Assembly: GCA_965242865.1 (NCBI GenBank)
Contig: CBDETK010000013.1
Span: 928,001-992,000 of the forward strand
Length of the DNA stretch: 64,000 bases
Origin: Candidatus Latescibacterota bacterium
GTDB taxonomy: Bacteria > Latescibacterota > UBA2968 > UBA8231
Direction: 5' to 3'
Within the stretch, counting starts at the first letter, position 1; the number at the start of each line of letters is the position of its first letter. Made by a program: the position numbers and the translations under genes. Under the pieces are notes generated by a model that was not told where the DNA came from, did no database searches, and saw only the letters and a list, made by a program, of their open reading frames with translations. Positions 546 to 18,985 of this stretch are shown piece after piece.

Positions 546-573
546 TGTTTACATAATATATTTTATAAGACAT
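546..573 (-). other. dif-like XerCD recombination site 1 (candidate chromosomal dif)
   Basis: Minus strand ATGTCTTATAA-AATATA-TTATGTAAACA, an 11-6-11 layout; right arm nearly identical to the B. subtilis dif arm TTATGTAAACT; intergenic, 78 bp after the recombinase stop. Confidence 0.8.
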
Positions 574-618
574 CATATTACGGATATTGCAGATTGAGGT
601 GTGTTGTGACCTCTCGTG

Positions 619-1560
619 TCACTCGGCGATATCCAAGTGCCGCTGAAAGGTCGCCAGATCGGCTGCTTGCACTGCCATGCGATGCAACTGCTTGAGCCGG
701 TGCAAATCGTGAATCGCGGCAATGCGGGCGGCCAACGAATGGGCGGAGGCCGCCCCAAAGCGAATCTCCAACACGTCGAGAATATCTTCAATGGCGCGGT
801 TGCGGCCCCCCTGCTCAATGCCCTGCTCAATGCCCTGCTCAATGCCCTGCTCAATGCCCTGCTCAATGCCCTGTTGGGTGAGGTGTTGAGCAAAGGATGA
901 TTCGCGCATGATTGCGTCCATAAGACCCTCCTGGGAAATAATACGCTGAATGGTGGTCCACTCGTAAGCCAACCCACTCAGTATCGCCAAGCCGCCCAAA
1001 AAGTCAACCTTGACGGCCGGATCCAATGGCATCGCCTGGGTTGCCTGAATGCACTGGCGCAACCACGCTTCCGAGGCCATGCCGGCCGGCGGTTTCATCA
1101 AGGGCGTGAAAGGAAGCAAACCCGACGGACCGGCGCGGACAACCGCTTGTCCCTCGATTTCGCTCAACCGAATGACCTTGTATTGCACCAAGATGCAGTG
1201 GCCGGGCAGGTCTTGGGCGTAGTAGCCCGGATCGCGCCGCCCGGCTTGGGGCCGTAGGTAAATCACGCTGGAATAGACCGGCTGGCGATGTTGTTCAATG
1301 GCGCGGATGATATAGCTGGCCATGCGGAGCGGCATGGGCGGGTCGGTGCGGTCGGTGGTTTGAAACTCGTGATGGACCAACGCCTCTTCACCGGCGATTT
1401 GGGCGCGCATGAGGCTATCGGTTTGGTGGGTTTCGACGGTGGATTGCTCTGGGTTGATGACTTCGCAGGCCGCCACATCGTCTCGTTGGAGGGCGAAGCG
1501 GACGAAGTCGGCGGGATAGGCTTGGATCAGGTGTTTGGAAATGGTATCGTATTCGGCCAT
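619..1560 (-). CDS. Rpn/YhgA-like PD-(D/E)XK nuclease / putative transposase family protein
   Basis: YD...K N-terminus, TDSL...HHEFQT motif, RMASY, PVYSSVIYL, C-terminal EQGI repeats and LEIRFG tail. Confidence 0.8.
   Translation of the reverse strand: MAEYDTISKHLIQAYPADFVRFALQRDDVAACEVINPEQSTVETHQTDSLMRAQIAGEEALVHHEFQTTDRTDPPMPLRMASYIIRAIEQHRQPVYSSVIYLRPQAGRRDPGYYAQDLPGHCILVQYKVIRLSEIEGQAVVRAGPSGLLPFTPLMKPPAGMASEAWLRQCIQATQAMPLDPAVKVDFLGGLAILSGLAYEWTTIQRIISQEGLMDAIMRESSFAQHLTQQGIEQGIEQGIEQGIEQGIEQGGRNRAIEDILDVLEIRFGAASAHSLAARIAAIHDLHRLKQLHRMAVQAADLATFQRHLDIAE
809..873. repeat. 12-bp tandem repeat CCCTGCTCAATG x5 (encodes QGIE repeats)
   Basis: Five perfect units plus a partial unit, inside the Rpn gene. 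Confidence 0.95.
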
Positions 1561-1568
1561 AACAATTC

Positions 1569-4493
1569 CTACACCACAATATTGACGATCTTATTCGGCA
1601 CCCAGATAAATCGCTTTATCGCCGCTTCATCGGCCACGTACCGCTGGATGCTCTCCATGGCGAGCACCAAGGATTTTATCTCTTCCTCGCCGGTGTGGAC
1701 CGGCACTTCGACTTGTCCGCGCATTTTGCCATTGACCTGAATGGGTACTACGATCAAGTCCTCGGCGGCCTTTGCTGCATCCCACCGCGGCCAACTCTGA
1801 CGACTGAGGCCCTCCGCCTCCTCTGCCCCCAAGCCGGCCAACTCCCATAGCTCCTCGGCAAGGTGCGGCGCAAAGGGCGCGAGCAAGAGCAAGAAGGGCT
1901 TGGCGACGGCCTGCGGCACCTCGTCTAAGGACACCAACAAGTTGTTTAGCTCGATCAAGGCGGCAATGGCCGTGTTAAACCGCAGCCCCTCTATGTCCTC
2001 GGTCACCTTTTGGATGGTTTGGTGCAGCTTTCTTTCCAAGTCCGGGGTCAGTGCCGTGCTCGTCCCTATTTTTATGCGTCGCTCTGAATCGACGAAGTTG
2101 CGCCAAACCCGCTGCAAAAAACGCTGCATCCCGCGGATGCCTTCCATGCTCCACGGCGCACTCGCTTCGAGCGGCCCCATGTACATTTCGTACAGCCGCA
2201 GGGTATCCACGCCAAATTCCTCGCCGACTTCTTCGGGTGGCAACCCGTTTTTATAGCGTTTGCCCATCTTGCCGAAGGACCGGTGCAGCCGCTTCCCCGT
2301 CCCCTTCTCAACAGGCTCCCCGTCGTGGAACTCGACCTCGCGGATGTCGATATACACGCCGCGATCGTCTTGGAAAGCATCGGCCGTCATCATGCCTTGA
2401 TTGAACAGCTTCTTAAACGGCTCGGGCGTAGATACGTGGCCCAAGTCGTAGAGGGCCTTGTGCCAAAACCGGGCGTAGAGCAAGTGCAACACCGCGTGTT
2501 CAGCACCGCCGATGTACAGATCGACCGGCATGAAGTAGCCTTCCTTGGCCGGGTCGCAGAAGGCTTCTTCGTTGTGTGGGTCGATAAAGCGGAGATAGTA
2601 CCAGCACGAACCAGCCCATTGGGGCATGACGTTGAGTTCGCGCTGGCAGGCCACCCCGTCAATTGCTACAGTCGTCCATTCCGCGCCAGCCCGGTGCAGC
2701 GGCGGCGACACGGGTTGCGCGGGATCGTCCGAGGTCTCCGGCCTGAAATCCTTTAGGTCCGGCAGCACCACCGGAGGGCCGGCCGCGACCGAATATCCGT
2801 CGGGATGCGTGGCCAGTGGAAAGGGTTCGCCCCAATAGCGCTGCCGCGCAAAGGTCCAGTCGCGCAGCTTGTAGTGTACCGCGGCTTGGCCGCGCCTGTG
2901 GGCTTCTAGAGCGGCGACAATTTGGGCTTTGGCCGCGGCGGATGCCAAGCCGTTAATGGCATAAAAATTATCGCCGGCCGCTGGAACAGGAGGCGAATGG
3001 ATCGCGGTTCCCTCGCCAGCATACCACCCGGTCTGGCCAGCACCAGCCAGCGGAAGCACGGCCCCGCCTTCCTCTTCGGCCACCACGCGCACGATGTCCA
3101 AGCTATACGCGGTGGCAAAGGCAAAGTCGCGCTCGTCGTGGGCCGGCACGGCCATGATGGCCCCCGCGCCGTAGTCCATGCTGACGTAGTCCGCGACAAA
3201 GATGGGGATTTTTTGCTCATTGACTGGATTGCGGGCGTAGATGCCGGAGAAAATCCCGGTTTTTTCCTTGGTCTCATCGGCGGTGGCGACGGCAGCCTGA
3301 GCTACGTACTCGGCGACGGCTTCCCGGATGGAGGCTCCGCTCCCCTTCCACTGCGCCGGCGTCCCCTCGGGCCAAGCACTCGGAACCAAGTAGGATTCTG
3401 ACGCGGGATCGACCAGCGGATGCAGCGGAGCAATGGCCATAAAGGTCGCGCCAAAGAGCGTGTCGGGCCGGGTCGTGAACACGGGCAACGGCTCGACGAC
3501 CGCGTCGCTTTGCGAATCGAGGACATCGAAATGCACTTCCGCCCCTTCGCTGCGGCCGATCCAATTGCGCTGCATCCGCTTGATGGGTTCGGGCCAATCG
3601 AGGCAAAAGGGCGCGCCGTGGCGGTCCTCCAGCTCGGCGTCCAAATCCGCCAAGAGCCGCTCGGCGTAGGCTGTGATGCGCATCGTCCACTGCCGCAATG
3701 GCTTGCGATAGACCGGGAAATCGCCCCGCTCGCTGCGGCCTTCGTTGGTCACCTCCTCGTTGGCCAACACAGTGCCCAAGCGAGGGCACCAGTTGACGAC
3801 GGCCTCTTGCTGGTACGCCAAGCGGTAGTTGTTCAACACGGCTTGCCGTTCCACCGCGGTGAGGGCCGCCCAGTCGGCCTCCGAGTGGAGCGTTTGGCGG
3901 TCGGCGGGCGACAAGGCCCGGCCGGCCGCAAATTGGGCCTCTAAGTCGGCGAGAGGCTTGGCCCGCCCCTGTATGAGGCGTCCTTGGCTGTCTTCCCAAG
4001 TATCGTCTTCGTCGAAATAGCTATTGAAGAGTTGGGCAAAAATCCACTGGGTCCAGCGGTAGTACGACACCTGCGAGGTGACCACTTCGCGCTCCCAGTC
4101 AAACGACAGCCCGAGAAACTGCAACTGGCCGCGCATGGCCGCGATATTCTGCTCGGTAACGGTCGCGGGATGGATGTTGTGTTCGATGGCGTATTGCTCG
4201 GCCGGCAACCCAAAACTGTCGAACCCCATCGGGTGCAGGACGTTAAAGCCCTGCATCCTTTTGTAGCGGCTGTAGATGTCGCTGGCGATGTACCCTTTGG
4301 GATGGCCGATGTGCAACCCCGCGCCGCTGGGATAGGGAAACATATCGAGGATGTAGCACTTGGGTTTGCTGCCGTCAAACCCGGGATCGCCCGGTCCCCG
4401 CGTTTGATAGGTCTGCTCCCGCTGCCAATGGGACCGCCATTTGGCCTCGATGGTTTGGAAGTTGTACTGGTTTGTTTTCTCTTTGGTTGACAT
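1569..4493 (-). CDS. leuS: Leucine--tRNA ligase
   Basis: MFPYPSGAGLHIGH (HIGH), KMGKR (KMSKS variant), editing domain TTRPDT; start moved to ATG 4493 behind AAGGAG. Confidence 0.97.
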   Translation of the reverse strand: MSTKEKTNQYNFQTIEAKWRSHWQREQTYQTRGPGDPGFDGSKPKCYILDMFPYPSGAGLHIGHPKGYIASDIYSRYKRMQGFNVLHPMGFDSFGLPAEQYAIEHNIHPATVTEQNIAAMRGQLQFLGLSFDWEREVVTSQVSYYRWTQWIFAQLFNSYFDEDDTWEDSQGRLIQGRAKPLADLEAQFAAGRALSPADRQTLHSEADWAALTAVERQAVLNNYRLAYQQEAVVNWCPRLGTVLANEEVTNEGRSERGDFPVYRKPLRQWTMRITAYAERLLADLDAELEDRHGAPFCLDWPEPIKRMQRNWIGRSEGAEVHFDVLDSQSDAVVEPLPVFTTRPDTLFGATFMAIAPLHPLVDPASESYLVPSAWPEGTPAQWKGSGASIREAVAEYVAQAAVATADETKEKTGIFSGIYARNPVNEQKIPIFVADYVSMDYGAGAIMAVPAHDERDFAFATAYSLDIVRVVAEEEGGAVLPLAGAGQTGWYAGEGTAIHSPPVPAAGDNFYAINGLASAAAKAQIVAALEAHRRGQAAVHYKLRDWTFARQRYWGEPFPLATHPDGYSVAAGPPVVLPDLKDFRPETSDDPAQPVSPPLHRAGAEWTTVAIDGVACQRELNVMPQWAGSCWYYLRFIDPHNEEAFCDPAKEGYFMPVDLYIGGAEHAVLHLLYARFWHKALYDLGHVSTPEPFKKLFNQGMMTADAFQDDRGVYIDIREVEFHDGEPVEKGTGKRLHRSFGKMGKRYKNGLPPEEVGEEFGVDTLRLYEMYMGPLEASAPWSMEGIRGMQRFLQRVWRNFVDSERRIKIGTSTALTPDLERKLHQTIQKVTEDIEGLRFNTAIAALIELNNLLVSLDEVPQAVAKPFLLLLAPFAPHLAEELWELAGLGAEEAEGLSRQSWPRWDAAKAAEDLIVVPIQVNGKMRGQVEVPVHTGEEEIKSLVLAMESIQRYVADEAAIKRFIWVPNKIVNIVV

Positions 4494-4512
4494 AAAACTC
4501 CTTATAAGACAT
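4485..4512 (-). other. dif-like site 2, overlapping the leuS RBS and start codon
   Basis: ATGTCTTATAA-GGAGTT-TTATGTCAACC; arms match site 1 at 20/22 positions. Confidence 0.75.
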
Positions 4513-5805
4513 TTATGGATAGAGACGCTGCATGGTGCGCGGAAATGGAACGGCCTCGCGCACATGCTTGAGACCGCACACCCAAGCGACCACCCGCTCA
4601 ATGCCCATGCCAAAGCCGGCATGTTCGACCGAACCATAGCGCCGCAAGTCGAGATACCAGTTAAAGGCCGCTGGGGGCAGCTGATGCGCGGCTATTTTGT
4701 GCTGCAAGACCGCGAGATCGTCTTCGCGTTGCCCCCCGCCGACGATTTCCCCGTACCCTTCGGGCGCCAGCAGGTCCATGCACAGAGCCAAGCGGCGGTC
4801 TTGGGCATCTTCCTTCATGTAGAACGCTTTGACCGCCCGGGGATAGCGGTGGACGAAAACCGGCGACTCAAACTCGGAGGCGAGGAGCGTTTCGTCGTCT
4901 CCCCCCAGATCGTGCCCCCAAGCAATGTCGCTGCCCAAGGCGGTCAAGCGGTCGACCGCTTCGTCGTAGGTGATGCGCGGAAAGGGCCGGCGGACCTGCT
5001 CCAGCTTGGCGGAATCTCGGTCGAGCACCGTTAGCTCGGCGCGGCAGCGGTCGAGGACGCGGTCGAGCGCGTACAGGACCAGGTCTTCGGCCAAGGCCAT
5101 GGCCCCCGCTAGATCGCAATAGGCCATCTCCGGCTCAATCATCCAAAACTCGGTTAGGTGCCGGCGGGTCTTGGACTTTTCTGCGCGGAACGTCGGCCCA
5201 AAGCAATAGACCTGCCCCAAAGCCATGGCGGCCGCTTCCATATAGAGCTGGCCGCTCTGGGTCAAATAAGCCGTGTCGTCGAAATACGCGGTCTCAAACA
5301 GGGTTGAGGTGCCCTCGCAGGCCGCGGGCGTAAAAATCGGCGCATCCACGAGCACAAAGCGGCGCTCTTCCATGAAGTCGCGGCACGCTTGGCAGACTGT
5401 GCTGCGGATTTTGAGAATGGCCCGAGGCCGCATCGACCGCAGCCACAAGTGGCGGTGGTCGAGGAGAAAGGACACCCCGTGTTCCTTGGGCGCGATGGGA
5501 TACGGCTCGGCCTCCTGCACGACATCGAGGTGGCTAACCCCCACCTCATAGCCGATGGGGGCGCGAGCCTCTCGCCGCACTTGGCCGCGGACGACGAGCG
5601 AAGACTCTTGCGGCAAGCGAGCGCAGTGCTCGAATAGTTCGGGCGCGACATCGCCCTTAAACACGACGCATTGCACCACGCCACTGCCGTCGCGCAATTG
5701 CAGGAAGTGCAGCTTGCCACTAGAGCGCCTGTTGTACAACCAACCGCGCAACGCAACTTCTCGCCCCTCGTAGCGGCCAATATCAGCGACCTGAATCGAC
5801 TCCAT
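4513..5805 (-). CDS. asnS: Asparagine--tRNA ligase
   Basis: OB-fold GW..NRRSSGK..F..LRDGSG, YLTQSGQL, FRAEKSKTRRHLTEFWMIEPE, GFGMGIER; start at MESIQ (the upstream extension is REP-derived). Confidence 0.96.
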   Translation of the reverse strand: MESIQVADIGRYEGREVALRGWLYNRRSSGKLHFLQLRDGSGVVQCVVFKGDVAPELFEHCARLPQESSLVVRGQVRREARAPIGYEVGVSHLDVVQEAEPYPIAPKEHGVSFLLDHRHLWLRSMRPRAILKIRSTVCQACRDFMEERRFVLVDAPIFTPAACEGTSTLFETAYFDDTAYLTQSGQLYMEAAAMALGQVYCFGPTFRAEKSKTRRHLTEFWMIEPEMAYCDLAGAMALAEDLVLYALDRVLDRCRAELTVLDRDSAKLEQVRRPFPRITYDEAVDRLTALGSDIAWGHDLGGDDETLLASEFESPVFVHRYPRAVKAFYMKEDAQDRRLALCMDLLAPEGYGEIVGGGQREDDLAVLQHKIAAHQLPPAAFNWYLDLRRYGSVEHAGFGMGIERVVAWVCGLKHVREAVPFPRTMQRLYP

Positions 5806-5819
5806 TTTCTCATCCGTAG

Positions 5820-5887
5820 CGTCATGCCCGCGAACGCGGGAATCCAGATGTGGGTATTCCGTCATGCCCGCGAACGCGGGAATCCAG
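5820..5887. repeat. Two direct copies of a 28-bp palindromic REP/dRS3-like element
   Basis: CGTCATGCCCGCGAACGCGGGAATCCAG at 5820-5847 and 5860-5887; internal hairpin CCCGCG-AA-CGCGGG. Confidence 0.85.
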
Positions 5888-5906
5888 TCTTGCTATAACA
5901 TAAAGA

Positions 5907-5937
5907 GAAGGCTATCGAGATAGACTCGATAGCCTTC
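5907..5937 (-). terminator. Intrinsic terminator after pnp
   Basis: 13-bp perfect stem GAAGGCTATCGAG/CTCGATAGCCTTC followed by TCTTT on the minus strand. Confidence 0.75.
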
Positions 5938-5960
5938 CCATCCTAGCCGAGACCAGCCCC

Positions 5961-8030: not shown

Positions 8031-8092
8031 TGGATATATCTTTTGCTCTTTCCTTTGAGGTGAGGTTTGAAATCAACGAGCACCGCTACGAG

Positions 8093-8359
8093 CTAGCGGC
8101 GCAATCCAAGCTCGCGGATCAATGCCGCGTACGCCTGCGGGTTTTTCTTTTGGTAGTAGCTCTGCAATCGCCTCCTTTTGCCTATGAGTACGAGTAACCC
8201 TCGCCGCGTGGCAAAGTCCTTTTGCTGGTCCTTGAGATGTTCGGTCAGGTTCCGGATCCGCTCGGTGAGAATCGCGATCTGCACCGGGGTGGAACCCGGG
8301 CCGCCCTCTGGGCCAAACTTTTCAATCAGTTCCTTCTTGCGTTCGCTGGTTATGGACAC
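8093..8359 (-). CDS. rpsO: 30S ribosomal protein S15
   Basis: GST.VQIAILT.RI..LTEHL...KD..TRRGL, LGLRR end; GTG start behind GGAGG. Confidence 0.95.
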   Translation of the reverse strand: MSITSERKKELIEKFGPEGGPGSTPVQIAILTERIRNLTEHLKDQQKDFATRRGLLVLIGKRRRLQSYYQKKNPQAYAALIRELGLRR

Positions 8360-8786
8360 TTCCAACCTCCGTATTTCGTTTCGCACCGCGCTGTTGGCCA
8401 CGGGCGGCAAACAAGGCGCGTGCTCGATGAATGTCTCTGCGGATTTGCCCTACCAACTCAGCGGGGCAGGCAAATGCGCGTGGGTCGCGCAGCTTCTCTA
8501 GGAGGACGACCTGTAAGGTCTGGCCGTAGAGGTCGCCGGCAAAATCGAGGATGTGCAACTCGATGACGAGCGCTGCTTCGGCGAATGTGGGCCGAGGGCC
8601 GATATGCGCCACGGCCGGCAAAACCCCACTTTGGCGGTATTGCACTGCGGCGGCAAAGACCCCTTGGGGCAAGGGCGCATCGCTTGGGGGCTGCAAATTC
8701 GCCGTGGGAAACCCCAGTGTTCGGCCCCGGCCTTGGCCCTTGGTGACGCGGCCGGAAAAACGCACGCCAGCGCATTCCCATTCCAT
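8322..8786 (-). CDS. Stand-alone riboflavin kinase (RibF C-terminal domain only)
   Basis: G..RGRTLGFPTANL, GVFAA, IGPRPTF, ELHILDF.GDLYG; no FAD synthetase domain. Confidence 0.88.
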   Translation of the reverse strand: MEWECAGVRFSGRVTKGQGRGRTLGFPTANLQPPSDAPLPQGVFAAAVQYRQSGVLPAVAHIGPRPTFAEAALVIELHILDFAGDLYGQTLQVVLLEKLRDPRAFACPAELVGQIRRDIHRARALFAARGQQRGAKRNTEVGSVHNQRTQEGTD

Positions 8787-9677: not shown

Positions 9678-10029
9678 GCGGGGCTCCACCGAGACCGAGA
9701 CCATCGATCAGGGCCGTAACGCGCACGGCGCGCTCGGTGGTGTCGTCGTACACCACCCGCAACTGGGGCGCGTAGCGTAAGCGCAGGCGCTGGGCCATTG
9801 CTCGGCGTATAAAACCCAAGCCTCGGTGCATTCCTTGCAGCACCTGCTTTTTGTCGTCGTCGTCGCCGAGGGTGTTGACAAAGATCGTGGCATGGCTCAT
9901 GTCGGAGGAGAGTTCCACATCGGCGATTTGAACGAGCTGTAGCCGCGGATCGTTCATCCGACCTACAATGTCGGTCAACTCGCGCAGCAACTGCTCGCGC
10001 ACTCGGCTAATTCGTTGTGGGGAAGCCAC
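9670..10029 (-). CDS. rbfA: Ribosome-binding factor A
   Basis: DPRL, LRYAPQL..YD; position between infB and truB. Confidence 0.92.
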   Translation of the reverse strand: MASPQRISRVREQLLRELTDIVGRMNDPRLQLVQIADVELSSDMSHATIFVNTLGDDDDKKQVLQGMHRGLGFIRRAMAQRLRLRYAPQLRVVYDDTTERAVRVTALIDGLGLGGAPHD

Positions 10030-10035
10030 CGGCGC

Positions 10036-10317
10036 TCAGTGTATTTCCATTTGGTAGTCGAGGATATGCACTCGGGGATCGCCTTCGACGAAGTTGACGA
10101 TTTTGGTCAACATCTCGTCGCAGTGTTCAACGGCCGAACTCACCACCGCAATCCCCAGCACCGACCGCTGCCACAGCGCGTGGTCATCTACTTCGGCTAC
10201 GGCCGCGTTAAAGCGGTTGCGGATGCGTCTCTTGAGGCTGTTGAGGACCTGCCGCTTGTTTTTGAGCGAATGGCTATCGCCGATGTAGATTTGCACCGCA
10301 CAACTCATGACGATCAA
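10036..10317 (-). CDS. DUF503 (YlxP-like) protein
   Basis: SLKNKR, FNAAVAEV..H..WQR; conserved position after infB. Confidence 0.88.
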   Translation of the reverse strand: MIVMSCAVQIYIGDSHSLKNKRQVLNSLKRRIRNRFNAAVAEVDDHALWQRSVLGIAVVSSAVEHCDEMLTKIVNFVEGDPRVHILDYQMEIH

Positions 10318-10340
10318 AACGGGTCAACAGCCCCCAACCC

Positions 10341-12692: not shown

Positions 12693-12706
12693 AACGACTC
12701 CCTCAG

Positions 12707-14059
12707 CTACTCAACCCTTGGGTCTGCCTCATCGCCCGCAGCAGGCGCGGCGAGCGCCTCTTCCCCCTCAGCCTCAGCAGCGGTCAATGACTCGATATCG
12801 ACCTCGCCGTGCTCGGCAAGGTACGCGGCGGCGGCCGCCTTTACTCCGTGGGCGGCTTCGGCTGGCTCTAGGCCTGGCACGGTCTGCAATAGCTCCAACT
12901 CGGCCTCGGCAACCGAGGTAATGGAGTCGAAACCGGACGTGGTCAAACTCAGGGCAATCAGTTCGCTAATGCCATCTATCTGGCGGAATACTTGCTGGTA
13001 CTGCTCCTGTTTGGCTCGGCGCTCTTGGTATTGCTCATCGGTGATAATATCGAGGCCCCAACCTGTGAGTTGGCTCGCGAGTTTGGTGTTTTGCCCCCCC
13101 TTGCCAATGGCCAGCGACAGCTGCTCCTCTTCGACGAGCACGACGGCGTGCCGACGGCGCGAATCCGTGATGCAGCGCATTACATTGGCGGGGCTTAGGG
13201 CCCGACTTATGAATATATCCGGCTCGTCGATCCAAGGAACGATGTCTATGCGCTCGCCGCTCAATTCTCGGACGACGGCTTGGACCCGCGACCCTTTCAC
13301 GCCGACACAGGCTCCCACGGGGTCCACGCGCTCGTCGCTGCTGCTGACCGCGATTTTTGCCCGCTCGCCCGGGTCGCGGGCTACGCCGTGAATTTCGACG
13401 GTGCCCTCGGCTATCTCGGGCACTTCCGTAGCAAAGAGCTTTCTGAGGAATTCGGGCCGCGTGCGGGAGAGCAAAACCTGAGGCCCCCGGCTCGACTTGA
13501 GCACCTCGTATATATAGCCTCGCACTGCATCGCCTTGGCGATAGCGCTCGCGGCGGATTTGCTCTTTGTATGGAACGGCCGCTTCGGCCCGGCCGAGGTT
13601 GAGGATGATGTCGCCGTGGCTGATCTGCTGCACAGAACCGGACTCGACGAGGCCGACCCGGCCGATAAATTCGTCGTATATTCGCTCGCGCTCGGCTTCG
13701 CGGACCCGCTGAATGAGAATTTGCTTTGCGGTTTGGATGGCATTGCGGCCAAAGTCGGCAAAATTGAGCTGTTGCACCAGCACGGAACCCAACTGGACAT
13801 GCGGGTCTAGGTCCTGCGCGTCGGCGAGGAGGATTTCCATGGACGGCTCGACCACTTCTTCGACGACGGTCTTGCGGGCGTACACGGCCATTTTGCCTTG
13901 GGCCGCGTCGATGTCAACTTCGTAGTTTTCAGTATTGCCGTAGTGCCTTTTGGCGGCTGAAATCAGGGCGTCGGCCAAGGTCTGCACCACCAATTCCCGG
14001 TCGACGTTTTTTTCGCGGGCAATCTGTCCCAAAGCTTCAACAATATTGGCGTTGTTCAT
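12707..14059 (-). CDS. nusA: Transcription termination/antitermination factor NusA
   Basis: FGRNAIQTAKQ, ARDPGERAKIAV, AIGKGGQN; C-terminal HhH repeat. Confidence 0.96.
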   Translation of the reverse strand: MNNANIVEALGQIAREKNVDRELVVQTLADALISAAKRHYGNTENYEVDIDAAQGKMAVYARKTVVEEVVEPSMEILLADAQDLDPHVQLGSVLVQQLNFADFGRNAIQTAKQILIQRVREAERERIYDEFIGRVGLVESGSVQQISHGDIILNLGRAEAAVPYKEQIRRERYRQGDAVRGYIYEVLKSSRGPQVLLSRTRPEFLRKLFATEVPEIAEGTVEIHGVARDPGERAKIAVSSSDERVDPVGACVGVKGSRVQAVVRELSGERIDIVPWIDEPDIFISRALSPANVMRCITDSRRRHAVVLVEEEQLSLAIGKGGQNTKLASQLTGWGLDIITDEQYQERRAKQEQYQQVFRQIDGISELIALSLTTSGFDSITSVAEAELELLQTVPGLEPAEAAHGVKAAAAAYLAEHGEVDIESLTAAEAEGEEALAAPAAGDEADPRVE

Positions 14060-14082
14060 GTTTTTTGCTCGACCTTTGACGC

Positions 14083-14535
14083 TTACAATTCTGGTTCGAT
14101 GTTGGCTCTAGCAATGTCGGCCCGCGCTACGAACCCCGCGGGGCTATCGAGTTGAATTCGGTCGGCTTCCCAAGCGACCAACCGGCCTTTAACTACTTGG
14201 CCGGACGCGAGAACGACTTTTAGCAACCGGCCCCGGGCGCGGCTGAAATCCCCTTCGGTCTCTAGGGGTCGGTCCAATCCTGGGGAGGTAACTTCGAGCC
14301 GATACCGTCCGGCAATCGGGTCTTCTATGTCGAAAAGATCGGCCACTTCGCGGCTGATTGACTCGCAGGTGGCCAAGGTTACGCCGCACTTTTTGTGAAC
14401 CAATAATCGAACTAGCGGATTGCCGTGGCCGCCGCTGAGTTCAATATCGACCAGTTCGGCCTCGTGCTCGCGGATAATGGGTTCGGCCAGAGCGACTAAA
14501 TGGGCCTTTAGTGCGAATGTATCGACAGCGGAAAT
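14083..14535 (-). CDS. rimP: Ribosome maturation factor RimP (start uncertain; ATT at 14535 proposed)
   Basis: C..ISRE, YRLEVTSPGLDRPL; homology (AEPII...ELVDIE) continues upstream of the TTG at 14403. Confidence 0.88.
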   Translation of the reverse strand: MSAVDTFALKAHLVALAEPIIREHEAELVDIELSGGHGNPLVRLLVHKKCGVTLATCESISREVADLFDIEDPIAGRYRLEVTSPGLDRPLETEGDFSRARGRLLKVVLASGQVVKGRLVAWEADRIQLDSPAGFVARADIARANIEPEL

Positions 14536-14564
14536 ACGCGCTTTTCCCCATTTTCCCCAGTAAG

Positions 14565-14590
14565 AAAAAAGTGGGCTATGATGCCCACTT
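14565..14590 (-). promoter_or_regulatory. rimP leader hairpin/attenuator
   Basis: AAGTGGGC-ATCATA-GCCCACTT plus T-tract upstream of rimP, matching the known GGGC/GCCC rimP leader. Confidence 0.75.
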
Positions 14591-14658
14591 GGGATTATAA
14601 AATATGGGATTGTATTGATTTAGGCAAGACGACTTAACAGCCCTCGCCAAATGCCCAG

Positions 14659-15054
14659 TCAGAGGAGGCGCAAAATCTCGCGCAGCTCCTTTTGGGCCTC
14701 TTTGAGCATTCTGAATGCGGCCTCTCGCTCTGGTGCGGGATCCGGCGGCCGCCGCTCCCCAACCGAAACGAGCGGGACTTGCTCGCCAGCTTGGCGCAGG
14801 AGCTCGGGCTCGTCTTTGAGCTTCTTCTTTACGCCCTGCGTCGTATAACGCTCCTCGTAGAGGAGGCGTTTGAGCAACAAGATGATCCCTATGTCGCGCT
14901 CCCGATAGGCCCTGTTTTTACCACCGCGTGCGCGCCGCGGCCGCAAACAGGCAAACTCCTTCTCCCACGCCCTGAGCGTATAGGGTTGCAGTTGAGTAAG
15001 TTCGGCAACCTCGCTGATGCTGTAATACAGCTTGTTTTGCAATGGGTTTTTCAC
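14659..15054 (-). CDS. MerR-family HTH regulator
   Basis: KLYYSISEVAE...LRAWEKEF..L.P...R.Y...DI. Confidence 0.88.
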   Translation of the reverse strand: MKNPLQNKLYYSISEVAELTQLQPYTLRAWEKEFACLRPRRARGGKNRAYRERDIGIILLLKRLLYEERYTTQGVKKKLKDEPELLRQAGEQVPLVSVGERRPPDPAPEREAAFRMLKEAQKELREILRLL

Positions 15055-16406
15055 GATCGCCCTTCCCTCGAACTCTTGCGCCGACGCCAGACGATGCGCA
15101 GGGGCGTTCCCTCGAAATCAAACTCCGACCGCAGCCGATTTTCAATGTGGCGTCGATAATTTTCTGGCACGGAGCGGGACCGATTCGTAAAGATCGTAAA
15201 CGCCGGCGGGTTGATCGCGTGTTGGGTGGCGTAGAGCAGGCGGATGTCTCGGCCTGCTTGGGCCGCCAAGTACTCGCCGGAGAGTTGCTGAATGATCTTG
15301 TTCAAGCGCGGGGTGGGAATCCGCGTCCGGCGCTTGTTGCCCACAGCGGCCACCACTTCGAGACACTTATGGACCCGCCGCCCGGTCAAGCCCGACAGGC
15401 ACAGCACCGGATAGTCGCGCAAAAAGGGATAGCGGTCGCGCAACGCCCGGCGGTACTCGGCCGCGGTGCCCTCGGCGACTAAATCCCATTTGTTGATCGC
15501 CACCACCAAGCCGCCGCCAGATTTTATCACTTGCTCCATGATGCGGACATCTTGCATAACCCACCCCTCGGCGCCGTCTAGCAGCACGACCGCCACATCG
15601 GCTTGGGCAATGCTGTTGGCCGCCCGGCGCGTACTGTAGAATTCCACCGGATCATCCACCTTAGACCGCCGCCGCAACCCGGCCGTATCCACGAACAGTA
15701 AGCGGCTATCTTGCCAAGTCAAGCGCAGTTGCGTTGGGTCCCGGGTGGTCCCGGGCTGAGGGTGGACGATGGAAACCTGATGGCCGGCGAGGCGGTTGAT
15801 CAGCGTGGACTTGCCCACGTTGGGCCGCCCGACTAAAGCGACCCGGATCGCCTCGTCATCCCATTCCGGCCCATGCCCCCCAGCCTCGTCAAAGAGCGCG
15901 ATCAGCGCGTCGAGCACCGCGCCGGAACGCCGCCCGGTAACGGCCGAGAGCGGCAGGGGGTCTCCCAAGCCGAGCCGGTAAAATTCGTCGAGCGCAGCGA
16001 CCGGCCCCACCTCGTCGATCTTGTTGACGGCCAGCAAGCACTTCCCGCCCCGGCTGCGCAGCATGGCCCCCAATTCTTGGTCGAGATCGGTCAAACCCGT
16101 GGTCCCGTCGCAGAGAAAAATCGCGATATCCGCCTCGGCCAGTGCCCGGGCCGCTTGCGCGCGCACGGCCGCCGCGAGCGCGTCTTGGGCACCGGGCATA
16201 TAGCCTCCGGTATCGACCAGCGTGAAAGACCGGCCTCCCCACTCGGCCGCGGCAAAAATCGGATCGCGCGTGACCCCGGGCTGGCCGTCGGTTATGGCCC
16301 ACCGGGTGCCCAAGATGCGGTTGAAAAGCGTGGACTTGCCCACGTTGGGCCGCCCGACAATCGCCACGATGGGCCGGCGTTGATTCTCGATGGTTTGGGT
16401 GCTCAC
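15051..16406 (-). CDS. der: Ribosome biogenesis GTPase Der
   Basis: Two GRPNVGKSTL G-domains; F.FEGTP C-terminus; GTG start overlapping the upstream stop. Confidence 0.96.
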   Translation of the reverse strand: MSTQTIENQRRPIVAIVGRPNVGKSTLFNRILGTRWAITDGQPGVTRDPIFAAAEWGGRSFTLVDTGGYMPGAQDALAAAVRAQAARALAEADIAIFLCDGTTGLTDLDQELGAMLRSRGGKCLLAVNKIDEVGPVAALDEFYRLGLGDPLPLSAVTGRRSGAVLDALIALFDEAGGHGPEWDDEAIRVALVGRPNVGKSTLINRLAGHQVSIVHPQPGTTRDPTQLRLTWQDSRLLFVDTAGLRRRSKVDDPVEFYSTRRAANSIAQADVAVVLLDGAEGWVMQDVRIMEQVIKSGGGLVVAINKWDLVAEGTAAEYRRALRDRYPFLRDYPVLCLSGLTGRRVHKCLEVVAAVGNKRRTRIPTPRLNKIIQQLSGEYLAAQAGRDIRLLYATQHAINPPAFTIFTNRSRSVPENYRRHIENRLRSEFDFEGTPLRIVWRRRKSSREGRS

Positions 16407-17761
16407 TTTGCGCGCCCTATGTAATAGCCCAGCTCGGTTAGCTGCCGCCCTTCCCCTTGGACCTTCACCCGCTGATCGGCCCAAAGGCCCTCGAGCGATT
16501 CGACCAAGTCGTACCCCCCTACCGCGAGGGGGACGCCGACCTCGTCCGCAAGCTGCGGCACGGTCCGGTCGTCCAGCGTCAGGCCCTCGCCATTGATGCA
16601 GTTGGGCGGCAACAAGACCCAATCCCGCTGAACTCCGTCGCACGCCCTCGCGGCCATGTCGCGGCCGGTCAGCAGGCCCGATACCGTGATGCCGTGGCCG
16701 AAAAAGTCGTTGTCTATCGGCAGGAGATCAATCTGCACGTTTTCAATGGCGTTCAGCCTCGCCATTAGGGGCGCGAGGATGGGCTCGGCCAAGCGGCCGG
16801 TCAGCAGGCCGATTCGGACGGCCTGGGCCACGCGCCCGGGCAGCCGCTGGCTCGCCGCGTCCCAAGTGTCGAGGAAGGAGCGGGACATGCCGATGCCGTT
16901 TTCTAGCTGGGGAAACGCATCGTAATAGGATGCCTCGGGCAGGGGCCGCCCCATCAGCAGAAAGATCTCGTCCGCCGCATAGACAAACCGCTCGCCAAAG
17001 CGCGCCTTGAATTGCAAGCCCCACGCTTCGGCCGCGGCCGCGTACTCAGCGGCCTTGGCCGGAGTCACCGGCTCGAGCGCGACGAGCTGGTGCCGATGAT
17101 CGGTCAGCCCCACGGGCACCAGGGCCACCGAGCGCACCGCGGGATAGTACGCCGCCAGGTCGGCCACTGTGCGCGCTAGGTGCGGCCCGTCGTTCCAGCC
17201 CGGGCAGAGCACGACTTGGGTGTGCATCTCAATGCCGTTGGCCGCTAGTTTGCGCAAGCGCTCGGTGATATCGACCGTCGCTTTGGTGCGCCCGAGCATG
17301 ACTTGCCGCAACTCGGGGTCGGTGGCATGGACCGAGATGTATTGCGGCGTCAGCCCTTGTTCAATGATGCGGTCAATATCGCTTTCGCGGACGTTGGTCA
17401 AGGTCACGTACGAGCCGTGGAGAAAGGAGAGCCGAAAATCGTCGTCCTCAAAATACAGGCTGCGCCGCATGCCCTTGGGCATTTGGTGGATGAAGCAGAA
17501 GACGCATTGGTTGTTGCAGCTCCGCAAGCGCATGTCTTCAAAGACGAGCCCCAAGGGCTCGCCGCTTTGGCGCTCGATTTCGGCCTCGTACCGGTCTGGG
17601 CCGCGCTCAATTTCTACGCAGATCACGTCCTCGGCGCTGTTGACCTGAACATCGATCAAATCGCGCACTTCTTCGCCATTGATGCGCAAAATGCGATCGC
17701 CAATGCAAAATCCCGCCCGCGCCCCGAGGCTGTTGGGTTCGATGTTTTTTACGACGACCAT
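16403..17761 (-). CDS. PDZ + DUF512 Fe-S oxidoreductase (radical SAM-like)
   Basis: N-terminal PDZ, CNNQCVFCFIHQMP, DDDFRLSFL.G, QLENGIG. Confidence 0.88.
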   Translation of the reverse strand: MVVVKNIEPNSLGARAGFCIGDRILRINGEEVRDLIDVQVNSAEDVICVEIERGPDRYEAEIERQSGEPLGLVFEDMRLRSCNNQCVFCFIHQMPKGMRRSLYFEDDDFRLSFLHGSYVTLTNVRESDIDRIIEQGLTPQYISVHATDPELRQVMLGRTKATVDITERLRKLAANGIEMHTQVVLCPGWNDGPHLARTVADLAAYYPAVRSVALVPVGLTDHRHQLVALEPVTPAKAAEYAAAAEAWGLQFKARFGERFVYAADEIFLLMGRPLPEASYYDAFPQLENGIGMSRSFLDTWDAASQRLPGRVAQAVRIGLLTGRLAEPILAPLMARLNAIENVQIDLLPIDNDFFGHGITVSGLLTGRDMAARACDGVQRDWVLLPPNCINGEGLTLDDRTVPQLADEVGVPLAVGGYDLVESLEGLWADQRVKVQGEGRQLTELGYYIGRAK

Positions 17762-17870
17762 CGTGAATTAAGCAATTAATCTACGCTAGGTATCATGCTG
17801 TGGGGCAAGATGTTCTATAAAATATAAGGTATGTGGATAGTACGCTGGCGGCAATACCTGCGAAAAGAAT

Positions 17871-17907
17871 AAAAAATCCGCCCGACCAAGGTGTTGGCCG
17901 GGCGGAT
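17871..17907 (-). terminator. Terminator after tRNA-Gly
   Basis: ATCCGCCCG/CGGGCGGAT stem plus T-tract. Confidence 0.8.
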
Positions 17908-17909
17908 GC

Positions 17910-17984
17910 TGGAGCGGGAGACGGGAATCGAACCCGCGACATCAAGCTTGGGAAGCTTGCGCTCTACCCCTGAGCTACTCCCGC
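17910..17984 (-). tRNA. tRNA-Gly(CCC)
   Basis: GCGGGAGTAGCTCAG...CTTCCCAAG...GGTTCGATTCC...CCCGCTCCA cloverleaf with encoded CCA. Confidence 0.97.
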
Positions 17985-18021
17985 TGATTTTTCTTTAAGG
18001 TAGAAGAGGCCCCAACCCCTG

Positions 18022-18966
18022 TCAACCCATCCCCCAGCGATACTCCCACTCGCCGACGATGCGCTCAACGACGCCGGTCTTTCCCCATACATCGAGATCG
18101 AGTACGCGCAAGCGGCGGTCGCGGCGGCACCACGTGGTTTGTCGTTTGGCCAAGTGCCGGGTGCGCTGTTTGGTCTGCTCAATGGCTTCGCGCCAAGGGC
18201 AATGCCCGGCCAGCGCGCGGCACAATTCAAAATAGCCCAAAGTCCCCAAGGCGCTGTCGCCGCGCTCGTATCCCAAGGCGCGCAAGGCGCGCACTTCTTC
18301 GATCCATCCTCGTTCCACCATTTGCTCGACCCGCTCGTCAATCCGCTCGTAGAGCCGGCCGCGGGCCATGGTCAGGCAGATCATCTGCGGCTGCTGCACG
18401 AGCGGCTGCCCGGTGCGCTCCCGACACAGGGTGCTGAGCGTACTCTTTCCGGCCAGCGCGACCTCCAACGCCCGCAAAATCCGCTGCCCGTCGCCCGGGT
18501 GCAACCGCGCTTGCGCGACCGGATCCCGATGGCCCAACTCCTCGTATAAGGAGGCAATTCCCTCGCCGTGCAGGCGATTGCACAATTCAGCGCGGATCGG
18601 CGCGTATTCGGTGTCGTCCGCAAAGCAGCCATCCAACGCGCTCTGCCAGTACAGGCCCGTCCCGCCGACCATCACGGGCAGGCCCCCTCGGTTCCAGACC
18701 TGCCCAATGACGCGCCGCGCCGCACGAGCGTACGCGCCCGCGCTGTAGTTTTTCTCCGGCGGGAGCACATCGAGCAGGTGATGGGGGCATTGGTTTTGCT
18801 GTTCAGGGGTTGGCTTGGCCGTGCCAATATCCAGGTAGCGATAGATTTGCCGCGAGTCGGCTGAGATGATTTCCACGTTGGGCAAGCGCTGGGCTACTTC
18901 GAGGGCTATTTCCGTTTTGCCGGTGGCGGTGGGGCCGGTGATTAGGATGAGTGGTTTGCTTGACAT
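18022..18966 (-). CDS. miaA: tRNA dimethylallyltransferase
   Basis: GPTATGKT, DSRQIY..LDIGTAKP, VGGTGLY, AKRQ.TW. Confidence 0.96.
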   Translation of the reverse strand: MSSKPLILITGPTATGKTEIALEVAQRLPNVEIISADSRQIYRYLDIGTAKPTPEQQNQCPHHLLDVLPPEKNYSAGAYARAARRVIGQVWNRGGLPVMVGGTGLYWQSALDGCFADDTEYAPIRAELCNRLHGEGIASLYEELGHRDPVAQARLHPGDGQRILRALEVALAGKSTLSTLCRERTGQPLVQQPQMICLTMARGRLYERIDERVEQMVERGWIEEVRALRALGYERGDSALGTLGYFELCRALAGHCPWREAIEQTKQRTRHLAKRQTTWCRRDRRLRVLDLDVWGKTGVVERIVGEWEYRWGMG

Positions 18967-18985
18967 AATTACAATTATGGGAACT
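18958..18985 (-). other. dif-like site 3, overlapping the rqcH stop and miaA start
   Basis: AGTTCCCATAA-TTGTAA-TTATGTCAAGC; 11-6-11 dif layout, same orientation as sites 1 and 2. Confidence 0.7.

What the first reader, a model, noticed from the sequence alone, without database searches (positions are those of the whole stretch)
546..18985. Three co-oriented dif-like (XerCD) sites, two of which supply the start codons of leuS and miaA
Seen (minus strand): ATGTCTTATAA-AATATA-TTATGTAAACA (546-573), ATGTCTTATAA-GGAGTT-TTATGTCAACC (4485-4512) and AGTTCCCATAA-TTGTAA-TTATGTCAAGC (18958-18985). All share the 11-6-11 ATAA-N6-TTATGT layout in a GC-rich background and point the same way; the central hexamers all differ. 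Known: chromosomes normally carry one dif, and extra copies are described for IMEX elements and plasmid pdif modules. Here the extra sites fill operon junctions of tRNA-related core genes, and the ATG of TTATGTC is the start codon. Inference: an unrecognised Xer-based system, such as terminus gene-cassette capture or shuffling, or Xer binding that regulates translation genes. The mismatched hexamers could prevent lethal excision.
Basis: partly seen in the sequence, partly recalled or inferred. Interest (0 to 1): 0.9.

Follow-up and report, generated by a model that had tools for sequence, protein, structure and literature searches.

The report
Six polar dif-like sites at terminus
The three sites are real and are half of a conserved set of six recombinase-type sites that straddle the place where chromosome replication ends, and related species show that the DNA between such sites has been flipped several times.

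Summary
Observation confirmed; interpretation partly right, and the real feature is larger. The window starts on the GC-skew switch (terminus) of a 5.6 Mb Latescibacterota chromosome. The three sites (here D, E, F, minus strand) are mirrored by three more just left of the window on the plus strand (A, B, C). An arm-only matrix trained on relatives puts five of the six at the top of the whole 6 Mb genome. In 10 complete genomes of the genus, 54 of 56 matches to a 19-base dif-like pattern lie in this about 45 kb cluster, ordered + + + - - -, centred on the skew switch. The six junctions are the same in all 14 complete relatives examined. The inner pair C/D brackets a cassette (small membrane protein, mutL, a lineage-specific Xer-like recombinase). 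This cassette occurs in both orientations, needing at least 5 flips on a tree. One relative has the whole A-to-F block inverted, with reciprocal hybrid sites. So these are genuine tyrosine-recombinase sites used for terminus-symmetric inversions. The acting enzyme and the selected role of the outer sites at the apt, leuS and miaA start codons are inferred only; the closest precedent is B. subtilis XerD/XDS. No binding or present-day switching was shown. Cassette capture is not supported.

The parts
3..467 (+). 3' part of rec3, a 326-aa lineage-specific Xer-like tyrosine recombinase. The whole gene is C13 927487-928467 and starts left of the window.
   Evidence: Pfam Phage_integrase 97.7 bits plus the SAM-like N domain. 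It scores below the XerC and XerD cut-offs: 132.7 and 118.9 bits against 335 and 330. It aligns to E. coli XerD 1a0p with the catalytic Arg, His-x-x-Arg, His and Tyr positions kept. 304 relatives at E <= 1e-20, all with generic names.
546..573 (-). It lies 78 bases after the rec3 stop, between the convergent rec3 and o313 genes, on the GC-skew switch.
   Evidence: 44.2 bits, rank 2 in the genome. A site directly after rec3 is seen in most rec3 loci, also at 58-66% identity.
619..1560 (-). o313, an ORF of unknown function inserted between leuS and site D. Among the genomes examined it is present only in G000 and its closest relative.
   Evidence: Only weak family hits. It is absent at this place in the 10 relatives and present in L033/G042. 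Partial paralogs exist elsewhere in the genome.
1569..4493 (-). leuS
   Evidence: TIGR00396 905.8 bits
4485..4512 (-). It fills the asnS|leuS junction. The right arm holds the leuS ATG and the centre holds the ribosome-binding site.
   Evidence: 33.1 bits, rank 3. The site is present at this junction in 18 of 18 leuS loci of the genus.
4513..5865 (-). asnS
   Evidence: NF003037 546.1 bits
18022..18966 (-). miaA
   Evidence: TIGR00174 245.3 bits
18958..18985 (-). The right arm holds the miaA ATG. The left arm is partly degenerate in G000.
   Evidence: 7.8 bits. The core is present at the miaA start in 20 of 24 genus loci. It is a break point of the A x F inversion in G009.
18984..20654 (-). RqcH/FbpA-like gene upstream of site F
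   Evidence: NF038240 154.8 bits and NF041120 62.8 bits, both below their cut-offs

Best explanation
**What it is.** The three sites are genuine recognition sites of a Xer-type tyrosine recombinase. They are the right half of a conserved array of six 28-base dif-like sites (11-6-11) that straddles the replication terminus of this Latescibacterota genus.

**Layout.**
- Sites A, B and C lie on the plus strand left of the GC-skew switch, at C13 900390, 916804 and 922342.
- Sites D, E and F lie on the minus strand right of it, at window 546, 4485 and 18958.
- Every site therefore has its better-conserved right arm facing the terminus.
- The inner pair C/D brackets a cassette that encodes a small membrane protein (o177), MutL and rec3.
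- rec3 is a Xer-like recombinase found only in this lineage.

**How it works.**
- A recombinase bound to one left site and one right site synapses the two inverted sites and exchanges strands inside them. This flips everything between.
- Any left-by-right event spans the terminus, so genes keep their direction relative to replication and the skew pattern is kept.
- Same-side events would delete essential genes and are mostly barred by unlike central hexamers.
- The sites sit exactly in the gaps between a stop codon and the next start codon, and the ATG of the right arm serves as the start of leuS and miaA. The apt ATG overlaps the end of the right arm of B. A flip therefore never breaks a gene.

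**Shown.** The array, its polarity, its place on the skew switch, its conservation, and natural recombinant junctions (C x D many times, A x F once).

**Inferred.** rec3 is the acting enzyme, alone or with XerC/XerD. One of the inner sites also serves as dif for dimer resolution. The outer sites are kept by selection because a bound Xer protein does something at the terminus, in the manner of B. subtilis XerD/XDS.
For: **Place and rarity**
- The cumulative GC-skew maximum lies at C13 925-930 kb, between C and D.
- 6 of the 8 matches to the core pattern in the genome cluster there.
- The top five matrix hits in the genome all lie there.

**Genus-wide**
- The pattern ATAANNNNNNWTATGTHAA gave 56 hits in 10 complete genomes of 4.2-6.6 Mb. 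54 of them lie in the terminus cluster, always plus-strand sites followed by minus-strand sites.
- The backwards-pattern control gave 4 hits in all.
- GC skew changes sign at the middle of the cluster in 14 of 14 complete relatives.
- The same six junctions are occupied in G000 and 12 of the 14 complete relatives. In G031, F is disrupted by an insertion, and G007 lacks F.
- apt starts at the end of the right arm of B in 10 of 10 relatives.
- E is present in 18 of 18 leuS loci.
- F is present in 20 of 24 miaA loci.

**Recombination**
- The cassette lies with rec3 next to leuS in 13, and with o177 next to leuS in 10, of 23 genus-level loci.
- A tree of seven flanking proteins from 24 genomes needs at least 5 changes of configuration. 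Three sister pairs differ.
- In sister pairs the flanks swap exactly at the site.
- In G009 the whole A-to-F block is inverted. Its two hybrid sites combine an A-type left arm with an F-type right arm, and the reverse.
- The centres of C and D are identical in 5 of 20 genomes, against a shuffle mean of 1.6 (P about 0.01).

**Enzyme**
- rec3 keeps the catalytic residues when aligned to XerD.
- It sits inside the inner pair in all genus loci.
- In more distant genera an inverted pair flanks rec3 alone. In G040 these two are the only two pattern hits in the genome.
- Five genomes of other families of the class have no rec3 ortholog (best match 27-32% identity) and no array.
- G000 also encodes a canonical XerD, a second Xer, one FtsK and SMC.
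Against: - There is no biochemical or in vivo evidence of binding or of strand exchange by any protein.
- Contigs of four public runs bridge C and D only in the reference configuration. No strand-changing joint was found. Contigs drop rare variants, so this neither supports nor excludes switching.
- In G000 the centres of C and D differ at 4 of 6 places, so this genome's own cassette may be locked.
- B and E were never seen recombined in 14 complete relatives or 23 loci. They may be binding-only sites or relics held by other constraints (translation start region, N-terminal codons).
- F in G000 scores no better than background.
- The configuration count rests on a quick tree, and relatives are not independent.
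- In the L036/L042 sister pair a variant inside the left arm stays with the cassette. In G009 the start of the centre stays with the left arm. The exchange point inside the site is therefore not uniform.
- In G000, sites A, B and C share the same centre and right arm. The 'unlike centres prevent deletion' idea does not explain this.
Confidence: 0.75

Rival explanations
1. XDS-like reading. The selected function of the array, above all of the outer sites A, B, E and F, is binding rather than recombination. A Xer protein sitting on dif-like sites round the terminus unloads or stops SMC (or FtsK), as described for B. subtilis XerD/XDS. The inversions are rare side reactions. This overlaps with the best explanation and differs only in what selection acts on.
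For: - The arms are conserved while the centres drift.
- B and E were never seen recombined.
- The centre of E is taken up by a ribosome-binding site.
- The sites are confined to about 45 kb at the terminus.
- G000 has SMC at 1019.7 bits and XerD at 335.7 bits.
- XerD/XDS is described in passages of PMC11840125, PMC10945525 and PMC11894783.
Against: - The strict polarity and the rec3 cassette are not explained by what I could read about XDS.
- The original paper is not held, so the number, sequence and orientation of XDS sites are unknown to me.
- The array appears together with rec3, not with XerD, which other families of the class also have.
Confidence: 0.35
2. Programmed switch. Inversion of the C/D cassette is a regulated, frequent event. 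It moves o177-mutL-rec3 from behind the prs...hprK operon to behind the asnS-leuS operon and so changes MutL and recombinase levels. Outer inversions re-wire further operons.
For: - In both configurations the cassette is co-oriented with the operon upstream of it. In relatives only about 16 bases separate the site from o177.
- The configuration is almost random on the tree: 5 changes against a shuffle mean of 6.9.
- The two sites show concerted evolution.
Against: - No evidence of mixed orientations within a sample.
- In other genera the cassette holds rec3 alone, so mutL is not essential to the design.
- No transcription data.
Confidence: 0.2
3. Polar barrier. The two opposed groups of sites with a bound recombinase-like protein form a replication fork trap, analogous to Ter/Tus or Ter/RTP. 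The gene of the binding protein lies beside the innermost sites, as tus and rtp do (recalled).
For: - Three plus three sites in opposed orientation centred on the skew switch in all genomes examined.
- The rec3 gene lies between the inner sites.
- No Tus or RTP homolog in G000, which is 93.6% complete.
Against: - No tyrosine recombinase is known to arrest forks (recalled; I ran no literature search aimed at this question).
- The polarity is equally explained by selection against deletions.
- Nothing here tests fork arrest.
Confidence: 0.07
4. Mobile-element reading. The extra sites are scars of Xer-exploiting integrative elements or captured gene cassettes, for example leuS between D and E.
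For: - D and E are direct repeats flanking leuS.
- LeuS of this genus is only 43-46% identical to that of most genomes of other families, but 63% to that of one of them.
- o313 and an LRR gene are strain-specific insertions next to the inner sites.
Against: - Gene content and order between all six sites are the same in G000 and 14 complete relatives.
- The leuS-to-truB order is kept in distant genera.
- Integration gives direct repeats, not the opposed three plus three.
- No presence/absence polymorphism of any inter-site block.
Confidence: 0.04
5. Chance, or ordinary AT-rich translation-start sequence (stop codon, ribosome-binding site, ATG), or a -10 box of leaderless genes that happens to look like dif.
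For: - TATAA(T) plus 7 bases plus ATG at miaA in relatives could be read as a -10 box with a leaderless start.
- The centre of E is a ribosome-binding site.
- F in G000 scores at background level.
Against: - 54 of 56 pattern hits in 10 genomes lie in the terminus cluster. The motif is not a general feature of gene starts.
- A and D lie between convergent genes, with no start codon to serve.
- The arms match between sites far beyond what a start region needs. The 11-base left arm shared by C, D and E occurs only 3 times in the genome.
Confidence: 0.02

Closest known systems
XerCD/dif chromosome dimer resolution (E. coli type), and the single-recombinase systems XerS/difSL and XerH/difH
   Same: A 28-base site of two 11-base arms and a 6-base centre with an inner ATAA/TTAT palindrome, placed on the GC-skew switch. 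XerD, a second Xer and FtsK are encoded. As with xerS (abstract of PMC2731167, listing), a recombinase gene (rec3) lies directly beside its presumed site.
   Different: There are six sites instead of one, in two opposed groups. An inverted pair brackets the recombinase gene. rec3 is a third recombinase, below the XerC, XerD, XerS and XerA model cut-offs. Sites overlap start codons of housekeeping genes.
XerD/XDS of Bacillus subtilis (Karaboja et al. 2021; seen only through citing passages)
   Same: Several dif-like sites scattered in the terminus region besides dif, with a role for a bound Xer protein that is not dimer resolution. SMC is present in G000.
   Different: Here the sites are full two-arm sites, strictly polar and confined to about 45 kb. 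They are tied to a lineage-specific recombinase and are demonstrably recombined in nature. Binding and SMC unloading are untested.
Acinetobacter dif (pdif) modules (abstracts of PMC13141974, PMC6449649 and PMC12907356)
   Same: A DNA segment bounded by two inverted Xer-type sites that is found in both orientations. There are multiple Xer sites in one replicon, and the modules are shuffled.
   Different: The Acinetobacter modules are accessory and often carry resistance. They are mostly on plasmids, move between replicons, and their sites alternate in orientation along an array (the alternation is recalled, not read). Here the content is core genes at a fixed chromosomal place and the orientation is three plus three, not alternating.
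Two inverted dif sites inside the 47.5 kb inverted repeat at the terminus of Lactobacillus delbrueckii ssp. bulgaricus (PMC5345009, passages)
   Same: More than one dif-like site in opposite orientation at a terminus.
   Different: There the sites are passengers of a very large duplicated inverted repeat. Here only the 28-base sites are repeated, the state is conserved across a genus, and it comes with its own recombinase.
Invertible segments that carry their own recombinase (Hin/Gin type; recalled) and Xer-like invertases of mycoplasmas and ureaplasmas (abstract of PMC3599477, listing)
   Same: The recombinase gene lies inside or beside a segment flanked by short inverted sites, and both orientations occur.
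   Different: Those systems switch surface or flagellar genes anywhere in the genome. This one sits on the terminus, uses dif-like sites, carries mutL, and has further nested site pairs up to 46.5 kb apart.

Membership tests
dif (chromosomal Xer dimer-resolution site) | 28-base 11-6-11 layout with imperfectly palindromic arms | tested here: met
   The comparison with the E. coli consensus itself is recalled, not tested.
dif (chromosomal Xer dimer-resolution site) | Located at the GC-skew switch (replication terminus) | tested here: met
   for G000; for 14 of 14 complete relatives
dif (chromosomal Xer dimer-resolution site) | One site per chromosome | tested here: not met
   Six sites in G000. 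Four to six pattern hits in the cluster of each of 10 relatives.
dif (chromosomal Xer dimer-resolution site) | XerC/XerD (or a single Xer) and FtsK encoded | tested here: met
   XerD 335.7 bits (over the cut-off), a second Xer 282.3 bits, rec3 118.6 bits; FtsK 229.3 bits
dif (chromosomal Xer dimer-resolution site) | Resolves chromosome dimers | not testable with these tools
   Needs genetics or biochemistry.
XDS (XerD-binding, SMC-unloading sites) | Several dif-like sites in the terminus region besides dif | tested here: met
XDS (XerD-binding, SMC-unloading sites) | Bound by XerD; unloads Smc-ScpAB | not testable with these tools
   Only the presence of SMC and XerD genes was shown. The defining paper is not held.
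dif/pdif modules (Acinetobacter type) | Segment bounded by two inverted Xer sites and found in both orientations | tested here: met
   The C/D cassette: 13 and 10 of 23 loci in the two configurations; at least 5 changes on the tree
dif/pdif modules (Acinetobacter type) | Accessory cargo that moves between replicons and contexts | tested here: not met
   Core genes at the same place and with the same neighbours in G000 and 14 complete relatives
IMEX (integrative element exploiting Xer) | Element flanked by direct dif-like repeats, present in some strains and absent in others | tested here: not met
   No inter-site block is variably present. leuS between D and E is the only full-length leuS match in the genome; the other matches are weak (E 1e-5 and 2e-4).
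Ter/Tus or Ter/RTP replication fork trap | Two opposed groups of polar sites flanking the terminus | tested here: met
   + + + - - - order in all genomes with six hits
Ter/Tus or Ter/RTP replication fork trap | Tus or RTP family protein | tested here: not met
   No PF05472 or PF02334 match in G000, which is 93.6% complete
Ter/Tus or Ter/RTP replication fork trap | Orientation-dependent fork arrest | not testable with these tools
   Needs experiments.
XerC / XerD / XerS / XerA equivalogs (for rec3) | Score over the curated NCBIfam cut-off | tested here: not met
   XerC 132.7 against 335.15; XerD 118.9 against 329.6; XerA 111.7 against 220; XerS 91.8 against 267
Tyrosine recombinase superfamily (for rec3) | Phage_integrase catalytic domain with the Arg, His-x-x-Arg, His/Trp and Tyr residues | tested here: met
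   Pfam 97.7 bits; alignment to XerD 1a0p

The most novel reading that the evidence does not exclude
A dedicated Xer-family recombinase and six polar dif-like sites form a programmed organiser of the replication terminus. It would be a nested, replication-symmetric 'terminus shufflon' that re-wires housekeeping operons at their start codons. This includes moving a mutL-recombinase cassette between two operons, which could give phase-variable mismatch repair. The same protein-site complexes might also act as polar barriers, for SMC unloading or as a fork trap, in a phylum that has neither Tus nor RTP.
Probability: 0.25. Interest if true: 0.9.

Novelty: new variant of a known kind. Interest (0 to 1): 0.8.

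Why it matters
Textbook chromosomes carry one dif. Extra Xer sites are known as scars of mobile elements, as plasmid module borders, or (in B. subtilis) as XerD landing pads.

Here a whole genus of uncultured, sponge-associated Latescibacterota keeps six full dif-like sites in a strict mirror arrangement on the terminus. A private Xer-like recombinase gene and mutL lie between the inner pair. Natural genomes record site-specific flips of 3.5 kb and of 46.5 kb that leave replication polarity intact.

If the recombinase is shown to act on these sites, this would be:
- a new use of the Xer toolkit, for chromosome-scale rearrangement that is safe by design;
- a natural example of recombination sites fused to start codons, so that operons can be re-joined without scars;
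- a handle on how terminus architecture (dimer resolution, SMC unloading, termination) is organised outside the model phyla.

It also warns that programs which predict a single dif per genome will mis-annotate such genomes.

Tried and rejected
**Reads.** The look-up of sequencing runs found only runs kept as contigs. Read laying on L001:3800-11200 with four runs showed contigs bridging C and D in the reference arrangement and no strand-changing joint. This says nothing firm about switching. Skips and a 'goes back' joint in run X1 belong to a related strain with different cassette content and were not followed.

**Leaderless-promoter idea** (TATAAT, 7 bases, ATG). Considered after and rejected as the main explanation. 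A and D lie between convergent genes, and the motif is absent from other gene starts.

**IMEX or cassette capture.** Rejected on synteny.

**Tus/RTP.** No homolog found.

**Literature.** Searches found no paper on dif or Xer in Latescibacteria and none describing a polar multi-site array with an invertible recombinase cassette. One search ('Latescibacteria', 'dif', 'recombinase') gave 4 unrelated papers. The library lacks most subscription journals. The key XDS paper (PMC7897262) is not held. Supplements are closed. The XDS site list and any published note on such arrays may therefore have escaped me.

I did not fold rec3 or o177, did not run complex prediction, and did not analyse KOPS-like skewed words.

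**Rows dropped.**
- Tree: of the 50 loci, I used the 23 that were 20 kb long among L033-L055, L074, L080 and L062, plus G000. L038, L052 and L053 were too short. L056-L079 apart from L062 (other genera, several of them short contigs) were not used. L081 and L082 are unrelated recombinases at 23-26% identity.
- Centre comparison: 19 loci plus G000. L041 and L051 dropped out because one of their two sites fell under the 14-bit threshold.
- miaA table: L104 (G035, miaA with an internal stop) was left out.


Full report
**1. The observation**

The three sites are in the sequence as written, on the minus strand at 546-573, 4485-4512 and 18958-18985.

- **Site 2** fills the 19-base gap between the asnS stop (TAA, 4515-4513) and the leuS start (ATG, 4493-4491). 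Its central hexamer contains GGAG, 5 bases before the ATG.
- **Site 3** overlaps the TAG of an RqcH-like ORF (18986-18984) and supplies the miaA ATG (18966-18964).
- Family searches confirm leuS, asnS, pnp, truB, der and miaA on the minus strand. They also show the 3' end of a tyrosine recombinase on the plus strand at 3-467.

**2. Where the window lies**

The window is C13:928001-992000 of a 5,997,474-base assembly in 13 contigs, 60.6% G+C.

- The cumulative GC skew of the 5.6 Mb contig peaks at 925-930 kb and bottoms at 3.6 Mb. The window therefore begins on the replication terminus, and site 1 sits on the switch.
- Titles of related records name the organism group as Candidatus Latescibacterota. 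Some are labelled Gemmatimonadota.

**3. Six sites, not three**

The core ATAA-N6-TTATGT occurs 8 times in the genome. Six of the 8 lie within 47 kb of the skew switch.

| Site | Strand | Position (first base) | Junction |
|---|---|---|---|
| A | + | C13 900390 | end of an McrC gene, facing the 3' end of a TRAP transporter gene |
| B | + | C13 916804 | upstream gene stop / apt start; the right arm ends in the apt ATG |
| C | + | C13 922342 | after a gfo-like gene, before o177 |

- The 11-base left arm shared by C, D and E occurs only those three times in the genome.
- A, B and C share the same centre (AGATTT) and the same first ten bases of the right arm.
- I trained an arms-only matrix on 35 sites that a script picked out of relatives' loci, with G000 excluded.
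- The matrix gave six hits of 16 bits or more in the whole genome. The best five were C, D, E, A and B. The sixth (17.0 bits) lay elsewhere.
- F reached only 7.8 bits, rank 32.

**4. What lies between the sites**

The genes between the sites are mostly housekeeping genes.

- Left of the switch, on the plus strand: MreB, MreC, YchF, apt, PRPP synthetase, RsgA, HPr kinase.
- Right of the switch, on the minus strand: leuS, asnS, pnp, truB, der, miaA.

Between C and D lie o177, an LRR gene, mutL, an unknown ORF and rec3.

- o177 is a 177-aa protein. By eye its sequence has two hydrophobic stretches, which no tool tested.
- rec3 (326 aa) has the integrase catalytic domain. It scores far below the XerC, XerD, XerA and XerS cut-offs.
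- rec3 aligns to E. coli XerD with the catalytic residues kept.
- rec3 has 304 relatives at E <= 1e-20, all with generic names.

Elsewhere the genome encodes a canonical XerD, a second Xer, one FtsK and SMC. It has no Tus or RTP.

**5. Conservation of the array**

- **Site E:** a site with the same arms lies at the asnS|leuS junction in 18 of 18 leuS loci of the genus (G000 included; LeuS identity down to 71%). The centre drifts between species, and three loci have a centre with no ribosome-binding site.
- **Site F:** the core lies at the miaA start in 20 of 24 loci. The exceptions are one locus with a different upstream gene, two with insertions, and one full of N.
- **Site B:** present in 10 of 10 complete relatives tested, with the apt ATG at the end of the right arm.
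- **Synteny:** I mapped 92 G000 ORFs onto 80 kb round the terminus of 14 complete relatives. The same six junctions carry a site in 12 of the 14. G031 has F split by an insertion and G007 lacks F.
- **Genome-wide rarity:** the pattern ATAANNNNNNWTATGTHAA gave 56 hits in 10 complete genomes.
  - 54 of them lie in the terminus cluster and 2 elsewhere.
  - Plus-strand sites always precede minus-strand sites.
  - The backwards control gave 4 hits.
- **Skew:** GC skew changes sign in the middle of the cluster in all 14 relatives.
- **Outside the genus:**
  - Five genomes of other families of the class have 15 scattered hits, at most one near leuS.
  - They have no rec3 ortholog; the best match is 27-32% identical.
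  - In other genera with rec3 at 58-66% identity, a site follows the rec3 stop in most loci.
  - In those genera an inverted partner often lies upstream of rec3 or of mutL-rec3.
  - In G040 the only two hits in the genome are such a pair, 1.1 kb apart.

**6. Evidence that the sites recombine**

*The C/D cassette*
- The cassette o177-mutL-rec3 is found in two configurations among 23 genus-level loci. In 13 loci rec3 is next to leuS. In 10 loci o177 is next to leuS. A dif-like site lies on each side, in inverted order.
- On a tree of seven flanking proteins from 24 genomes, the configuration needs at least 5 changes, forced by well-supported branches. Three sister pairs differ.
- In the sister pairs L047/L048 and L039/L044/L074 the outer flanks are exchanged exactly at the site, while the centre and right arm stay with the cassette.
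- The centres of C and D are identical within a genome in 5 of 20 cases, though they differ between genomes. The shuffle mean is 1.6 and P is about 0.01; relatedness was not corrected for.
- By eye in the table, a variant in the left arm also tends to be shared by both sites of a genome.

*The A x F inversion*
- In G009 the 1.5 kb upstream of miaA is the McrC ortholog.
- The full map shows the whole A-to-F block inverted relative to its flanks.
- One hybrid site is made of an A-type left arm and an F-type right arm. The other is made of an F-type left arm and an A-type right arm.
- That is the signature of conservative site-specific recombination between two inverted sites 46.5 kb apart.
- GC skew in G009 still flips at the centre, as expected for an inversion that spans the terminus.

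**7. What was not shown**

- No protein binding was shown, and the acting enzyme was not identified.
- No present-day switching was shown. Public runs holding this strain are kept only as contigs, which bridge C and D in the reference arrangement.
- B and E were never seen recombined.
- The centres of C and D differ at 4 of 6 places in G000 itself.
- The shared centre of A, B and C in G000 is unexplained. Direct repeats with the same centre should be prone to deletion.

**8. Most likely mechanism**

A Xer-type recombinase recognises all six sites. I take this to be rec3, because it appears together with the inverted sites and sits between them. XerC or XerD may act with it.

- Recombination between a left site and a right site inverts the DNA between them.
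- The mirror arrangement makes every such event symmetric about the terminus and therefore tolerable.
- Placing each site in the gap between a stop codon and the next start codon, with the ATG inside the right arm, makes the events scar-free for genes.
- One inner site probably serves as dif.

Why the outer sites are kept is open. The best precedent is XerD/XDS of B. subtilis, where XerD bound to dif-like sites in the terminus region unloads SMC. I know it only from citing passages; the paper itself is not held.

Other readings remain possible but untested: a programmed expression switch involving mutL, and a polar barrier to forks.

**9. Comparison and novelty**

| Known system | Shared feature | Difference |
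|---|---|---|
| Classical dif | site layout and place at the terminus | one site per chromosome (listing) |
| Acinetobacter dif modules | inverted borders and both orientations | accessory, mobile cargo |
| L. bulgaricus inverted dif pair | two dif-like sites in opposite orientation at a terminus | the pair lies inside a 47.5 kb duplication |

My seven literature searches found nothing on Xer or dif in Latescibacteria and no polar multi-site array with an invertible recombinase cassette. The library has the limits stated under Tried and rejected.

I rate this a new variant of a known kind (Xer site-specific recombination), of high interest.

**10. Verdict**

Confidence that these are genuine recombinase sites used for terminus-symmetric inversion is 0.75. 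The physiological role remains inferred.

Noticed in passing
C13 927346-927373 (L001 9346-9373), 114 bases upstream of rec3, just left of the window: A perfect 11-6-11 palindrome with a GATAA-N6-TTATC core, unique in the genome. It lies about 1.1 kb beyond the 3' end of leuS in most genus loci where rec3 adjoins leuS; in G011 this is the gap between mutL and rec3 (coordinates compared by hand). Paired changes keep the palindrome. It could be an operator of rec3, another recombinase site or an RNA hairpin.
   Followed up: partly
C13 922370-922480 (after site C) and after site A (C13 about 900440): A dispersed short repeat of about 65-75 bases with a G+C-rich hairpin. It has 59 further hits in the genome and very high contig depth in the laid runs. 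In G000 it separates site C from o177, which in relatives starts about 16 bases after the site.
   Followed up: partly
window 619-1560 (-): o313 is an ORF with only weak Rpn-nuclease/transposase-like hits. It is inserted between leuS and site D in G000 and its closest relative only, and has two or three partial paralogs elsewhere.
   Followed up: partly
C13 900390, 916804 and 922342 (sites A, B, C): In G000 the three left sites share the same centre and the same first ten bases of the right arm. In G042, B and C share a centre; in G005, A and B do. This suggests gene conversion between same-side sites. It is unexplained.
   Followed up: no
window 1569-4493 (-), leuS: LeuS is 974 aa, with an insertion relative to the bacterial model: two matched stretches, residues 224-974 on model positions 143-842. 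It is 43-46% identical to LeuS of most genomes of other families of the class but 63% to that of G021. This may reflect an unusual history of the gene.
   Followed up: no
G035:C1:6397985-6398943 (locus L104): miaA of this relative is matched in two pieces with an internal TGA. The gene may be broken, or there may be an assembly error.
   Followed up: no
C13 923137-924108 (-) and 926170-927156, inside the cassette, left of the window: G000 carries an LRR-repeat gene inside the invertible cassette, and between mutL and rec3 a stretch where the long frames have no family match. Both regions are missing from the cassette of the other 14 complete genomes.
   Followed up: no
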